Counted from the first letter of the stretch, positions 3,011-4,794 are shown. The stretch: DNA of 5,561 nt from a virus (UHGV-0348703); one strand, 5' to 3'. Program-made: numbers and translations. The notes: generated by a model not told the origin, from the letters alone.

Positions 3011-3922
3011 GTGTGTCTATATCCAAGTACCATAGAGAATCCAAAGTACGCCAAATCGAAGGAAAACGCTAAAAAAATAAGAGACCGTCGTCTGAGATGG
3101 ATCCAAATTCCATGCGGACACTGCGAAGAATGCAGACGCGCAAAAGCAAATGAATGGAGAGTAAGATTGATGGAAGAAATAAAATCCAATCCAAAAAATA
3201 CTATATTTGCAACGCTGACGTTCTCCGAAAAAAGCCTAAAAAAATTAGAATATGACGAAAACGAACCGAACAAAACACCTCAAAAAGCAATCAGCCTATT
3301 CAGAAAACGATGGTGGAAAAAGTATAAAAAACCACTCAAACACTGGCTAATCACAGAAATGGGACACGACAATACCAAAAGAATACATCTGCACGGCATT
3401 ATATGGACAGAACTAACAGAGGAACAATTCGAAAAAGAATGGGGGTACGGCTGGGTATTCTTCGGGTATGAAGTAAACGAAAGAACAATAAACTACATCA
3501 TAAAATACATAACGAAAAAAGACGAGGATAACCCTGAATTCAACGGAAAAATATTCACATCAAAAAAAATCGGAATAAGCTACATAAACAAAAACACACT
3601 CAACAGGCATAGATATCGGGATAAATTCACAGAAGAAACATACAAAACAAATTCAGGAATAAAAATAGCACTACCAGCATACTACAGACAAAAAATATGG
3701 ACAGATCAAGAACGCGAAGCCCTCCGAATCATAAAAGAGGAAAAACAAATAAAGTACTACAACAAAACTCCTATCAAAGTAGAAACAATAAAACAATACG
3801 AAGAATATGTACACGCAGTAAAATATTGGCAATCAATCAAAAAATATGACGGAAAGAGAAAAGAAAGAAATATGCAAGGCATATGCAGACCTGATCATAA
3901 AGAAAGAACAATTAATTCGTGA
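3011..3922 (+). CDS. VP4: Rolling-circle replication initiator (VP4 / Rep, HUH endonuclease), 303 aa with a GTG start
   Basis: The N-terminus MCLYP...NP is followed by the Zn-finger-like IPCGHCEECRRAKANEWRVRLMEE (C35 at nt 3113). RCR motif I is FATLTF (nt 3206-3223). Motif II is RIHLHGIIW (HLH at 3386-3394). Motif III is NYIIKYITKK (Y162 at 3494, K at 3515). The GTG at 3011 is the first canonical start after an in-frame TAA at 2984. Confidence 0.9.
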   Translation: MCLYPSTIENPKYAKSKENAKKIRDRRLRWIQIPCGHCEECRRAKANEWRVRLMEEIKSNPKNTIFATLTFSEKSLKKLEYDENEPNKTPQKAISLFRKRWWKKYKKPLKHWLITEMGHDNTKRIHLHGIIWTELTEEQFEKEWGYGWVFFGYEVNERTINYIIKYITKKDEDNPEFNGKIFTSKKIGISYINKNTLNRHRYRDKFTEETYKTNSGIKIALPAYYRQKIWTDQEREALRIIKEEKQIKYYNKTPIKVETIKQYEEYVHAVKYWQSIKKYDGKRKERNMQGICRPDHKERTINS

Positions 3923-4037
3923 AATATGGGAAACGGAAATTGCAACCAGAAAAATAGAGAATATATTGACCAGAAACAGGATAATAAATTCACCAAAGGA
4001 AGAGGAGACATCGGAGACAGATCCACCAATCTTATAA
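3846..4037 (+). CDS. Possible overlapping ORF (63 aa, frame 3) spanning the Rep 3' end and the 5' end of the next ORF. The alternative reading is that this is noise.
   Basis: The ORF begins with ATG and gives a charged helical-looking sequence (MTEREKKEICKAYADLIIKKEQLIREIWETEIATRKIENIL...). A-rich DNA generates K/E-rich open frames readily, so support is weak. It overlaps the low-complexity N-terminus of ORF 3926. Confidence 0.15.
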   Translation: MTEREKKEICKAYADLIIKKEQLIREIWETEIATRKIENILTRNRIINSPKEEETSETDPPIL

Positions 4038-4285
4038 AACTAATCGGTGCAGAAACAGTATCCAGACGAGACTTCAGATACGAAGGAACATTCTACGTGA
4101 CAGAAGACGGAGAAACATTCAACAAGGAATACGTAGATACTCAAAAACCACAAAAAACCGGCGTCAGCTTCTACGAGGTAAGCAACTGGATATACAACGA
4201 AAGAAAACAACTGTACGAACCTATTGTCAGAAGAATAGTAATGATCAAAAAAAACGACACTCAATTATCACTAAACTATGAATGA
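3926..4285 (+). CDS. Hypothetical protein (119 aa). The N-terminal ~35 aa are low complexity. An internal GTG at 4097 is a possible alternative start.
   Basis: It begins 1 codon after the Rep TGA in the same frame and ends TGA 4283-4285, overlapping the next ATG (ATGAATGA). The C-terminal two thirds (LIKLIGAETVSRRDFRYEGTFYVTEDGETFNKEYVD...EPIVRRIVMIKKND) look like a folded domain. No family was recognised. Confidence 0.5.
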   Translation: MGNGNCNQKNREYIDQKQDNKFTKGRGDIGDRSTNLIKLIGAETVSRRDFRYEGTFYVTEDGETFNKEYVDTQKPQKTGVSFYEVSNWIYNERKQLYEPIVRRIVMIKKNDTQLSLNYE

Positions 4286-4448
4286 AAAAGTAAAGAAAAT
4301 CGTAAAATGGATCGCGGTAATAGCAGCCGCAATCGGCGCCGCAGCTGCCGTAATCATGGAACAAGGATGCACTCACAAGCACCACTTCAAAGCAAACGGA
4401 ATCAAAATCGACACAATCGAAGTATCAACAACAACAAAAATCAAGTAA
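4278..4448 (+). CDS. Small single-pass membrane protein (56 aa) not in the supplied ORF track. A candidate lysis protein (amurin/holin-like) or other membrane effector.
   Basis: My translation is MNEKVKKIVKWIAVIAAAIGAAAAVIMEQGCTHKHHFKANGIKIDTIEVSTTTKIK. It has one 20-residue Ala/Ile/Val/Gly hydrophobic helix flanked by Lys on the N side and a His/Lys-rich polar tail. The ATG 4278 overlaps the upstream stop (ATGAATGA). Its TAA 4446-4448 is followed 1 nt later by the next ATG 4450, a tight coupling-like layout. Codon usage (ATC x6 for Ile, GTA for Val, GCA for Ala) matches the capsid gene. Confidence 0.6.
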   Translation: MNEKVKKIVKWIAVIAAAIGAAAAVIMEQGCTHKHHFKANGIKIDTIEVSTTTKIK

Positions 4449-4497
4449 CATGAACAAAGAGCATCAACAACAACAAAAATCAAGTAACATGGACAAA
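4424..4497 (+). repeat. Direct tandem duplication: two 35-nt copies (4424-4458 and 4463-4497) at a 39-nt period, with 1 mismatch
   Basis: Copy 1 is ATCAACAACAACAAAAATCAAGTAACATGAACAAA. Copy 2 is ATCAACAACAACAAAAATCAAGTAACATGGACAAA. The first 29 nt are identical. Copy 1 holds the stop of the membrane-protein ORF and ATG 4450. Copy 2 lies inside the next ORF and supplies an in-frame ATG 4489. Confidence 0.85.
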
Positions 4498-4794
4498 AAA
4501 TTCAGAAATCAGCTACTTGCTGAAAGCGGAAAAAAAGAAGAAGAAATCGAAAACGTAAACCTCGAAATCGAAGAAAGAGTACAATCGAAAAACGGCATAT
4601 TCGTACTGATCCGCAACAAGAAAAACAAGTGGGTAATCACAATGTGCGGATCGATGTTAAACGCAAAGGAATTCGACACCAAAGAAGAAGCGGAAAAACA
4701 CATAGCTAAAAAAGAATGGGAAGACATCTTGACCGCAACATTCATATTCATCCTGCACGTATACAACGAAATGAAAACCAATCAAACAAAATAA
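4450..4794 (+). CDS. Hypothetical protein (114 aa) immediately upstream of VP1. The alternative start ATG 4489 is created by the tandem duplication.
   Basis: ATG 4450 to TAA 4792-4794, and VP1 starts 3 nt later. It has a Gln-rich N-terminus, an acidic coiled region and a conserved-looking core ...NGIFVLIRNKKNKWVITMCGSMLNAKEFDTKEEAEKHIAKKEWEDIL.... No family was recognised. It occupies the position of the small packaging/accessory genes (VP5-like) in gokushoviruses. Confidence 0.5.
   Translation: MNKEHQQQQKSSNMDKKFRNQLLAESGKKEEEIENVNLEIEERVQSKNGIFVLIRNKKNKWVITMCGSMLNAKEFDTKEEAEKHIAKKEWEDILTATFIFILHVYNEMKTNQTK

What the first reader, a model, noticed from the sequence alone, without database searches (positions are those of the whole stretch)
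4278..4448. Unannotated 56-aa single-TM ORF wedged between genes: candidate single-gene lysis protein of a gokushovirus-like phage
The supplied ORF track misses a + strand ORF. It encodes MNEKVKKIVKWIAVIAAAIGAAAAVIMEQGCTHKHHFKANGIKIDTIEVSTTTKIK, an N-terminal transmembrane helix (small-residue rich, AxxxG-like packing) followed by a basic/His-rich tail. This is the same gross architecture as phiX174 E, with no sequence similarity. Both ends overlap or abut the flanking genes (ATGAATGA upstream, TAAcATG downstream). Its codon usage matches VP1, which argues it is a genuine gene and not a frame artefact. Lysis genes of Gokushovirinae/Alpavirinae-type microviruses are largely unidentified, and this genome has no recognisable peptidase or endolysin. 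A small membrane protein is therefore the best lysis candidate. Alternatives are superinfection exclusion or a DNA-delivery accessory.
Basis: partly seen in the sequence, partly recalled or inferred. Interest (0 to 1): 0.75.

Follow-up and report, generated by a model that had tools for sequence, protein, structure and literature searches.

The report
Conserved small membrane protein of gut microvirus
A 56-codon gene in this 5.5-kb gut microvirus is real and is the most tightly conserved gene of its lineage; it encodes a tiny cell-envelope protein that is a reasonable but untested candidate for the unknown host-lysis function, and it does not resemble phiX174 protein E in the way first proposed.

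Summary
The ORF at 4278-4448 (+) exists exactly as described. It is a genuine gene. All 36 close relatives found independently through VP1 keep it intact at 56 codons. Its pN/pS of 0.11 is the lowest of the seven genes, and residues 2-31 reach 0.03. The two alternative frames have pN/pS of about 2 and carry stops.

The protein has a Lys-rich N-terminus, a 17-residue hydrophobic core, an invariant Glu-Gln-Gly-Cys31 and a 25-residue β-hairpin-like tail. This predicts an N-in/C-out topology, the opposite of phiX174 E. There is no E homology, no TM proline, and the gene is not overprinted.

Sister clades (VP1 42-58% identical) carry unrelated small ORFs in the same VP4-to-VP1 slot, nearly all with canonical lipoprotein lipoboxes. 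ORF56 fails the lipobox pattern in 0 of 109 members because of Glu/Asp at -3.

No lysin is recognisable in the genome. More distant relatives carry an M15 peptidase plus a tiny TM ORF, or DUF5675, in this slot. These never co-occur with the signal-plus-Cys ORFs.

Lysis is therefore plausible (about 0.4) but unproven. About 20 relatives have none of these genes. Superinfection exclusion is the main rival. The virus has an Alpavirinae-like gene order and is not shown to be gokushovirus-like.

The parts
4278..4448 (+). ORF56 gene: 56 codons plus a TAA stop
   Evidence: Listed. There are 190 homologues. The ORF is intact in all close relatives. pN/pS is 0.106, the lowest of the seven genes. It is called as a gene on the source contig.
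4278..4307 (+). Residues 1-10, MNEKVKKIVK: a Lys-rich n-region, predicted cytoplasmic
   Evidence: It carries four Lys and one Glu (sequence). pN/pS is 0.019 with pS 0.27. E3, K4, K6 and K10 are invariant.
4308..4358 (+). Residues 11-27, WIAVIAAAIGAAAAVIM: a 17-residue hydrophobic core with small-xxx-small motifs
   Evidence: The KD mean is 2.69. It lies within the AF2 helix spanning residues 3-29, with block-mean pLDDT 83, 81 and 63 over residues 1-30. pN/pS is 0.055 with pS 0.34.
4359..4370 (+). Residues 28-31, Glu-Gln-Gly-Cys: an invariant juxtamembrane motif with a lipobox-like G(-1)C(+1) but Glu at -3
   Evidence: pN is 0 while pS is 0.66. 107 of 109 members read [MLI]EQGC. 0 of 109 match the canonical lipobox pattern.
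4371..4445 (+). Residues 32-56: a predicted extracytoplasmic tail with alternating hydrophobic and polar residues, giving a β-hairpin-like prediction
   Evidence: AF2 places strands at 31-37 and 47-53 at low confidence, pLDDT about 55. G41 and D45 are invariant. pN/pS is 0.22.
4278..4285 (+). ATGAATGA: the ORF56 start overlaps the stop of upstream ORF119 (3926-4285)
   Evidence: Read from the sequence. The arrangement suggests translational coupling, which is an inference.
4446..4452 (+). TAAcATG: the ORF56 stop lies one base before the ATG of the downstream gene
   Evidence: The junction is conserved in 30 of 30 relatives, with the stop varying as TAA or TGA.
4489..4794 (+). Downstream core gene, the ORF114 family. 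Its conserved start MDKKF is the second ATG. The first ATG at 4450 was created by the duplication.
   Evidence: Relatives start at the equivalent of 4489. The source gene caller starts there and gives 101 aa. The family is present in 46 of 48 clade genomes directly upstream of VP1.

Best explanation
ORF56 is a genuine accessory gene specific to this lineage. It encodes a 56-residue protein targeted to the cell envelope. The Lys-rich N-terminus stays in the cytoplasm. Residues 11-27 span the inner membrane. The invariant Glu-Gln-Gly-Cys31 sits at the periplasmic interface. The 25-residue β-hairpin-like tail faces the periplasm. The protein is either an uncleaved type-II signal anchor or an atypical prolipoprotein.

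The helix and the EQGC motif are far more constrained than the tail, so the activity most likely resides in sequence-specific contacts of this membrane segment with a conserved host envelope component.

Its most likely role is release of progeny, that is, a single-gene lysis effector that is not homologous to phiX174 E and works differently from it.

Shown: the gene is real, its constraint pattern, its composition and predicted topology, the absence of a recognisable lysin in the genome, and the contents of the same slot in relatives. Inferred: membrane insertion, topology, and all of the function.
For: ORF56 has pN/pS 0.106, against VP1 0.195, VP2 0.136 and VP4 0.155. Residues 2-31 have pN/pS 0.03 at pS 0.35, so the constraint acts on the protein and not on the DNA.

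The hydrophobic helix is shown.

No lysin or peptidase is recognised in any ORF.

The other small genes of the genome are clade-wide core genes: ORF107 occurs in 48 of 48 genomes (cluster C2) and ORF114 in 46 of 48. ORF56 is therefore the clearest lineage-specific accessory gene.

In relatives with VP1 about 40% identical, the same VP4-to-VP1 slot holds Peptidase_M15_3 (PHROG 'endolysin', E 1e-19), a second M15-like family, or DUF5675. The M15-type genes are generally followed by a tiny TM ORF. These never co-occur with the signal-plus-Cys ORFs.

The literature reports that lysis-associated accessory genes occupy fixed slots in microviruses and that only phiX174 lysis is understood. Single-TM peptides of 37-91 aa are proven single-gene lysis proteins.
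Against: There is no experimental or homology-based link to lysis. No family match was found in Pfam, PHROGs, NCBIfam or the PDB. Only the protein's own narrow family appears among 1.84 billion representatives.

L039 (VP1 56% identical, complete genome) has no hydrophobic ORF in any frame between VP4 and VP1. About 20 of 48 clade genomes have neither a small TM ORF nor a lysin. Lysis in this clade can therefore be achieved without such a gene, possibly by a core protein, as with Qβ A2.

The slot is simply the accessory-gene slot, so shared position is weak evidence of shared function.

Known single-gene lysis proteins of RNA phages evolve fast, whereas this is the most conserved gene of the lineage.
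Confidence: 0.4

Rival explanations
1. ORF56 is a superinfection-exclusion or receptor-masking protein. In this reading a small inner-membrane or lipid-anchored periplasmic protein blocks the phage receptor or the DNA-entry route. That would protect infected cells and prevent progeny from being wasted on debris or outer-membrane vesicles. Known examples are T5 Llp, phi80/N15 Cor and T4 Imm.
For: The distribution is lineage-specific and patchy, with non-homologous analogues in sister clades occupying the same slot. Nearly all of those analogues (all but L048) are canonical small prolipoproteins, which is the class to which Llp belongs (PMC9586334). The tail evolves at about the same rate as VP1 (pN/pS 0.22 against 0.195). 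Lysis is evidently possible without this gene in L039 and others.
Against: The hydrophobic segment, which would be a disposable targeting signal for an Llp-like lipoprotein, is the most constrained part (pN/pS 0.03). There is no homology to Llp, Cor or Imm families. The tail of 25 residues is much shorter than mature Llp at 61 aa (size from memory). ORF56 fails the lipobox pattern.
Confidence: 0.25
2. ORF56 is a cleaved mini-lipoprotein acting like a colicin lysis (bacteriocin release) protein. Lgt and Lsp process the precursor at Cys31. The 26-residue lipopeptide, and possibly the stable signal peptide, would then perturb the outer membrane or envelope and cause quasi-lysis. This is a mechanistic sub-variant of the lysis reading.
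For: Cys31 is invariant, with Gly at -1, directly after a K-rich n-region and a 17-residue h-region. The precursor and mature sizes (56 and 26 aa) resemble those of colicin lysis proteins; the sizes of those proteins are from memory, and their nature as small lipoproteins causing quasi-lysis is. Sister-clade analogues match the lipobox pattern in 20 of 22 cases. hhalign aligns the ORF56 helix, Cys and THK with family 2 at 75% probability, E 2.6e-5.
Against: 0 of 109 family members match the canonical lipobox because of Glu/Asp at -3. There is no match to the colicin-lysis Pfam family or to any lipoprotein family. The tails are not significantly similar to those of the canonical lipoprotein analogues, with z about 0. 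The gene order relative to the 'YVxxDG' ORF differs from L040 and L041, so homology with family 2 is not established.
Confidence: 0.2
3. ORF56 is a morphogenesis, replication-anchoring or DNA-delivery accessory. A small membrane protein would tether replication or assembly to the inner membrane, or modulate burst size, as suggested for the non-essential 56-aa membrane protein K of phiX174 (from memory).
For: The gene is translationally chained with ORF119, ORF114 and VP1. Its very strong constraint is typical of a protein with fixed partners.
Against: The gene is absent from L039 and from most of the wider clade, which keep all core morphogenetic genes. There is no similarity to any virion or scaffold family.
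Confidence: 0.12
4. ORF56 is an E-like MraY inhibitor, that is, a functional homologue of phiX174 E.
For: Only the gross resemblance supports this: a small protein with an N-terminal hydrophobic helix followed by a polar, basic tail.
Against: There is no E-family hit. The helix has no Pro, whereas Pro21 is required in E. The predicted topology is the opposite. The gene is stand-alone and not overprinted. The tail is predicted periplasmic, so it could not bind a cytoplasmic chaperone.
Confidence: 0.04

Closest known systems
phiX174 protein E (single-gene lysis, MraY inhibitor; Bullavirinae)
   Same: It is a small microvirus protein with one N-terminal hydrophobic helix and a polar tail. The genome has no muralytic enzyme.
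   Different: There is no sequence similarity and no helix proline. The predicted topology is the opposite, N-in/C-out. ORF56 is a stand-alone gene, whereas E is overprinted in D. ORF56 is 56 aa against 91 aa for E.
Single-TM lysis peptides of ssRNA phages (LysM, 37 aa, and Sgl-PP7; MurJ inhibitors)
   Same: The size class matches. Activity is carried by one TM helix contacting a conserved membrane enzyme. These proteins are non-homologous and lineage-specific.
   Different: No homology was found. ORF56 is under unusually strong purifying selection, and its target is unknown. The phage type is different (ssDNA), and the probable host differs.
Colicin lysis proteins / bacteriocin release proteins
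   Same: The precursor is very small, with a basic n-region, a hydrophobic core and a Cys after a small residue. The extracytoplasmic part is about 26-28 residues. The role is cell-envelope permeabilisation.
   Different: There is no homology. The canonical lipobox is not met because of Glu at -3. These proteins are plasmid-borne in Enterobacteriaceae and are not phage-borne.
T5 Llp and Cor-type superinfection-exclusion lipoproteins
   Same: These are small phage-encoded envelope proteins made from a signal-peptide-plus-Cys precursor. They are accessory and lineage-specific.
   Different: There is no homology. ORF56 has a much shorter extracytoplasmic part and a non-canonical lipobox. Its targeting segment is the most conserved part.
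Small prolipoprotein ORFs of sister microvirus clades (family 2: L040, L041, L044-L047, P0121-P0134; also L086; L048 has the same architecture but fails the lipobox pattern)
   Same: They occupy the same VP4-to-VP1 region, have the same size class and the same n-region/h-region/Cys architecture, and carry a short β-rich tail ending in Lys. hhalign gives 75% probability over the helix and Cys.
   Different: Their lipoboxes are canonical. In them the mature part is conserved and the signal is variable, which is the reverse of ORF56. The tails are not significantly similar. The local gene order differs.

Membership tests
phiX174 E-type lysis protein | Sequence homology to the E family | tested here: not met
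   No E-family hit appears in Pfam or PHROGs even at E up to 1.
phiX174 E-type lysis protein | Essential proline (Pro21) within the N-terminal TM helix | tested here: not met
   ORF56 contains no Pro in any of its 56 residues. The requirement for Pro21 is cited from PMC11126076.
phiX174 E-type lysis protein | Gene overprinted inside the scaffolding gene in another frame | tested here: not met
   ORF56 is stand-alone. It overlaps its neighbours by 8 nt and 0 nt only.
phiX174 E-type lysis protein | N-out/C-in topology with a cytoplasmic C-terminal domain, and MraY inhibition | not testable with these tools
   The charge bias (+3 N-terminal against about +1 C-terminal) predicts the opposite topology, which is an inference from the sequence. 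MraY inhibition needs an experiment.
Bacterial prolipoprotein (SPII signal, Lgt/Lsp substrate) | Positively charged n-region followed by a hydrophobic h-region of 7-22 residues | tested here: met
   MNEKVKKIVK is followed by a 17-residue core.
Bacterial prolipoprotein (SPII signal, Lgt/Lsp substrate) | Invariant Cys at +1 preceded by a small residue (G/A/S) at -1 | tested here: met
   G30 and C31 are invariant in 36 of 36 aligned and 109 of 109 full-length members. pN is 0 at pS 0.66.
Bacterial prolipoprotein (SPII signal, Lgt/Lsp substrate) | Canonical lipobox with uncharged residues at -4 to -2 (PROSITE PS51257-type pattern, recalled from memory) | tested here: not met
   0 of 109 members match because of Glu/Asp at -3. 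By contrast, 13 of 14 family-2 proteins and 7 of 8 relatives' ORFs match.
Bacterial prolipoprotein (SPII signal, Lgt/Lsp substrate) | Actual diacylglyceryl modification and Lsp cleavage | not testable with these tools
   This needs a dedicated predictor (SignalP 6 or LipoP), globomycin treatment, palmitate labelling or mass spectrometry.
Colicin lysis protein / BRP | Homology to the conserved colicin-lysis family | tested here: not met
   No such Pfam or NCBIfam hit was found.
Colicin lysis protein / BRP | Quasi-lysis with outer-membrane phospholipase activation | not testable with these tools
   This requires an experiment.
Spanin (o-spanin Rz1 type or unimolecular spanin) | A partner i-spanin gene (type-II TM plus coiled coil) or a C-terminal TM domain in the same protein, together with an endolysin and holin | tested here: not met
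   ORF56 is the only small hydrophobic ORF on the + strand. It has no C-terminal TM segment. The genome has no endolysin.
Holin | Acts together with a phage endolysin encoded nearby | tested here: not met
   No endolysin is recognisable in the genome. In contrast, relatives L049, L053, L054, L060 and L072 do have an M15 peptidase followed by a tiny TM ORF.
Llp/Cor-type exclusion lipoprotein | Homology to Llp or Cor, and binding of the phage receptor | tested here: not met
   No homology was found. Receptor binding cannot be tested here.
Gokushovirinae (virus assignment in the finding's title) | VP1 closest to gokushoviruses | tested here: not met
   The best VP1 hits are unclassified faecal microviruses. 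Named gokushoviruses match at about 28% over 42-50% of the query. A conserved small gene directly after VP1 fits the Alpavirinae description. No formal phylogeny was done.

The most novel reading that the evidence does not exclude
Gut microviruses of this clade release their progeny with a single tiny envelope protein exported by the Sec/lipoprotein route. This would be a phage counterpart of colicin release lipoproteins, invented several times independently (the ORF56 family, family 2, and the L048 and L086 types) in the same genomic slot. In the ORF56 lineage, the Glu-containing pseudo-lipobox and the invariant helix would make the precursor itself the toxic species, for example by jamming Lgt, Lsp or another conserved envelope enzyme of Bacteroidales.
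Probability: 0.15. Interest if true: 0.8.

Novelty: new variant of a known kind. Interest (0 to 1): 0.55.

Why it matters
Outside the phiX174 group, how microviruses lyse their hosts is essentially unknown (Roux 2012; Kirchberger 2022). These phages are among the most abundant in the human gut. This lineage alone accounts for clusters with hundreds of member sequences and many complete contigs of about 5.55 kb.

ORF56 is a short, synthesisable and highly conserved candidate whose function can be tested directly. If it is lytic, its target would be a conserved envelope 'weak spot' of gut anaerobes, probably Bacteroidales. It would also represent a new class of protein antibiotic, with an export-type topology unlike E, LysM or L.

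If it is instead an exclusion factor, it would be the first described for this group. The parallel presence of canonical mini-lipoproteins in sister clades suggests a general, undescribed strategy in these microviruses.

Tried and rejected
- **Remote homology.** Pfam, PHROGs, NCBIfam, PDB sequence profiles and a profile search of 1.84 billion representative proteins returned only the protein's own narrow family. The one outlier, P0146, is a 769-aa Cys-rich repeat protein resembling the tail, judged coincidental.
- **Homology of ORF56 to the canonical mini-lipoproteins of sister clades.** hhalign gives 75% probability, driven by the helix and Cys. The tails are not similar (z about 0) and the gene order differs. 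Homology is left open and is not claimed.
- **Host identification.** The only genome-collection hit is a 5.7-kb Acinetobacter lwoffii scaffold that is just the phage genome. It does not show integration and is not usable as host evidence. Two longer IMG/VR contigs break inside VP2's Gly-rich region and look chimeric. Neither was accepted as host evidence.
- **Nucleotide similarity.** A near-identity search in annotated phage records gave no match.
- **The Arg-rich overlapping frame as the real gene.** This was rejected because of extra stops and pN/pS above 2.
- **ORF114 as a hidden lysin.** A weak PHROG 'amidase' hit at E 0.08 prompted the check. It was rejected because the family is core in 46 of 48 genomes, including those that carry M15 peptidases.
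- **Structural RNA in the region.** Rfam found none.
- **AlphaFold model.** Its confidence is too low (pLDDT 66) for fold searching, so none was run.

Full report
**What the window is.** The 5561-nt window is a complete circular microvirus genome. It is a rotation of ENA contig ERZ27315349:k141_116840, whose 141-nt terminal repeat marks circularity. All genes are on the + strand:
- VP1, 4798 across the origin to 1279, 680 aa.
- A 107-aa gene directly after VP1 (1284-1607).
- The VP2 pilot protein (1763-2971).
- The VP4 replication initiator (3011-3922).
- Three small genes between VP4 and VP1: ORF119 (3926-4285), ORF56 (4278-4448, the finding) and ORF114 (4450 or 4489 to 4794).

No gene has a Shine-Dalgarno-like leader.

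VP1 is at most 56-62% identical to any annotated phage record. All the best hits are unclassified faecal microviruses, and named gokushoviruses match at about 28% over half the protein. The conserved small gene immediately downstream of VP1, together with the VP1-VP2-VP4 order, fits published descriptions of Alpavirinae-type genomes. I did not build a phylogeny. 'Gokushovirus-like' is therefore not supported, and a Bacteroidales host is only an inference.

**Observation.** The ORF, its translation and both junctions (ATGAATGA upstream, TAAcATG downstream) are exactly as described. A 56-codon ORF is not unusual here, because the window has 64 ORFs of 30 aa or more. Conservation is what makes it a gene.
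- A search of 5.8 billion proteins returned 190 homologues, almost all exactly 56 aa and 80-95% identical, many on contigs of about 5.55 kb.
- A VP1-based search of IMG/VR found 36 loci with VP1 at least 81% identical. Every one had also been found through ORF56. The ORF reads through intact in every relative checked.
- Across 36 distinct nucleotide sequences, variable columns fall 15, 7 and 39 by codon position. pN/pS is 0.11 in frame, against 1.9 and 2.2 in the other frames.
- The overlapping Arg-rich frame gains extra stops in most relatives.
- Codon usage scores +0.44 per codon in frame against -0.68 and -0.45 out of frame.
- Public gene callers do call this ORF.

**Anatomy.** Residues 1-10 (MNEKVKKIVK) carry four Lys. 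Residues 11-27 (WIAVIAAAIGAAAAVIM) form the only strongly hydrophobic stretch of any small + strand ORF in the genome. Residues 28-31 are Glu-Gln-Gly-Cys. Residues 32-56 alternate hydrophobic and polar positions and end in Lys.

AlphaFold2 with the family alignment gives a helix at 3-29 and two strands at 31-37 and 47-53. Confidence is only moderate to low, with mean pLDDT 66.

The charge bias predicts N-in/C-out. That is the orientation of a signal peptide or type-II anchor, and it is opposite to phiX174 E. E's C-terminal domain is cytoplasmic and bound by SlyD (established knowledge; YES complex and Pro21 requirement cited in PMC11126076). ORF56 has no proline, no E homology and is not overprinted. 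The E analogy is therefore superficial.

**The constraint pattern is the most informative result.** Among the seven genes of this lineage, ORF56 has the lowest pN/pS:

| Gene | pN/pS |
|---|---|
| ORF56 | 0.106 |
| VP2 | 0.136 |
| ORF107 | 0.153 |
| VP4 | 0.155 |
| VP1 | 0.195 |
| ORF114 | 0.30 |
| ORF119 | 0.575 |

Within ORF56, residues 2-31 have pN/pS 0.03 at pS 0.35. The EQGC codons show no amino-acid change at pS 0.66. The tail has pN/pS 0.22. Synonymous change is normal throughout, so the constraint acts on the protein and not on an overlapping DNA element. A disposable targeting signal would not be conserved like this. The helix and its periplasmic end are probably the functional core.

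**A lipoprotein lead, and its limits.** A basic n-region, a hydrophobic core and an invariant Cys preceded by Gly form the outline of a prolipoprotein. Genomes whose VP1 is 42-58% identical carry small ORFs with the same outline in the VP4-to-VP1 region. These genomes are L040, L041, L044-L048 and L086.

One group, 'family 2', has a highly conserved mature part (C-T-V-x-HKVVQSAYNTxTGDSIxIRYEQTG) behind variable signals. A PROSITE-type lipobox pattern, recalled from memory, matches 13 of 14 family-2 proteins and 7 of 8 relatives' ORFs. It matches 0 of 109 ORF56-family members, solely because of Glu/Asp at -3.

Evidence on whether ORF56 is related to family 2 is mixed:
- hhalign aligns the ORF56 helix, Cys and THK with family 2 at 75% probability.
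- The tails are not significantly similar, with z about 0, whereas the L047 type is clearly related to family 2, with z of 6-9.
- The order relative to a neighbouring 'YVxxDG' ORF differs.
- A profile of the ORF56 family found nothing but itself among 1.84 billion representatives.

I therefore do not file ORF56 as a lipoprotein. It is either an uncleaved signal-anchor protein or an atypical prolipoprotein. The sister-clade ORFs are analogues, and possibly very distant homologues.

**Function.** No ORF of the genome matches a lysin, peptidase, holin or spanin family. ORF107 is present in 48 of 48 clade genomes. The ORF114 family is present in 46 of 48, always just upstream of VP1 and including genomes that carry peptidases. 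Both are core genes and not lysis candidates. ORF56 is the clear lineage-specific accessory gene.

In relatives with VP1 about 40% identical, the same slot contains one of the following:
- Peptidase_M15_3 (PHROG endolysin, E 1e-19) in L053 and L060.
- A second M15-like family in L049, L054 and L072.
- DUF5675 in L064, L067, L070 and L076.

Each M15-type gene is generally followed by a tiny TM ORF. None of these co-occurs with a signal-plus-Cys ORF. This fits the published view that lysis-associated accessory genes sit in fixed slots and that only phiX174 lysis is understood. It gives indirect support to a lysis role.

Against this, L039 (VP1 56% identical, complete genome) has no hydrophobic ORF in any frame of the slot. 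About 20 of the 48 genomes have neither kind of gene. The clade can therefore evidently lyse without one. The slot is also simply where accessory genes go.

The main rival is superinfection exclusion or receptor masking, for which small phage lipoproteins and membrane proteins are the classic agents. The extreme conservation of the helix argues somewhat against an Llp-like role, but it is compatible with an Imm-like membrane block.

I put lysis at about 0.4, exclusion at about 0.25, and other accessory roles at lower values. The BRP-like cleaved lipopeptide is a sub-variant of lysis at about 0.2.

**Novelty and verdict.** It is wrong on the E-like architecture, on the conserved His tail and on gokushovirus affinity, and it missed the Cys/lipobox-like feature.

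I found no paper describing small signal-plus-Cys proteins in microviruses. The family has no annotated relatives. It is best classed as a new variant of a known kind, namely small phage-encoded envelope effectors. It is directly testable and sits on an open question, microvirus lysis outside the phiX174 group.

Noticed in passing
window 4421-4458 and 4460-4497: A 39-bp tandem duplication (95% identical copies) spans the ORF56 stop and the start of the downstream gene. It is absent from all 30 relatives examined. It leaves ORF56 unchanged. It creates a second TAAcATG junction, so the downstream gene can start at 4450 (adding 13 aa, MNKEHQQQQKSSN) or at the conserved start 4489.
   Followed up: yes
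L040 1299-1514; L041 1088-1300; L044 1861-2070; L045 639-854; L046 5808-6191; L047 1033-1248; proteins P0121-P0134: A family of 62-90-aa ORFs in sister microvirus clades has variable signal peptides and canonical lipoboxes (SSC, TSC, QSC, SAC, TGC). The mature part of about 33 aa is highly conserved (CTVTHKVVQSAYNTATGDSIVIRYEQTGKGFK). These are apparently undescribed phage mini-lipoproteins.
   Followed up: partly
L049 4606-5067; L053 468-999; L054 366-828; L060 670-1201; L072 109-557: More distant relatives carry an M15-type peptidase (Peptidase_M15_3 or a related 106-118-aa family). It is immediately followed by a tiny ORF of 32-46 aa with one hydrophobic helix. This looks like a two-gene endolysin plus holin-like cassette in the VP4-to-VP1 slot.
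   Followed up: partly
L064 2388-2765; L067 4774-5250; L070 692-1147; L076 688-1035: DUF5675 proteins (Pfam E 1e-18) occupy the same slot in four genomes. In three of them a hydrophobic ORF of 57-101 aa overlaps the DUF5675 gene in another frame. This may be overprinting of the E-in-D kind, or it may be chance.
   Followed up: no
window 4489-4794 (ORF114) and homologues in 46 of 48 clade genomes: A core gene of unknown function sits directly upstream of VP1 in all these genomes. It has the conserved motif 'TPF.I.......G.....ITE......E........W..I' and no family match. Its role may be in scaffolding or packaging.
   Followed up: partly
window 3926-4285 (ORF119): This is the fastest-evolving gene of the lineage, with pN/pS 0.575. 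Its 'YVTEDGETF' stretch resembles the 'YVD.ETGE' motif of a 57-78-aa ORF family (cluster C3) found in 21 clade genomes.
   Followed up: no
L038 (NZ_JACWEU010000076.1, Acinetobacter lwoffii SU1904 scaffold_75, 5673 nt): The whole scaffold is a microvirus genome of this lineage, with VP1 84% identical and ORF56 intact. It has no bacterial flank. It gives no evidence of integration and may be a contaminant or an episome in the assembly, so it is not host evidence.
   Followed up: partly
L042 about 5533 and L043 about 4621: Two IMG/VR contigs longer than a genome switch from microvirus sequence to unrelated DNA inside VP2. In L042 the switch is at the Gly-rich region. L042 continues into integrase, ATPase and zeta-toxin-like genes. 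L043 continues into phage-like genes. These are probably chimeric assemblies and not prophage junctions.
   Followed up: partly
P0146 (769 aa, from the representative library): A Cys-rich repeat protein contains five copies of 'PLKVNGVCVDTIQVSATHKLK', which resembles the ORF56 tail 'FKANGIKIDTIEVSTTTKIK' (profile E 1e-10). It is probably a coincidental β-hairpin motif.
   Followed up: no
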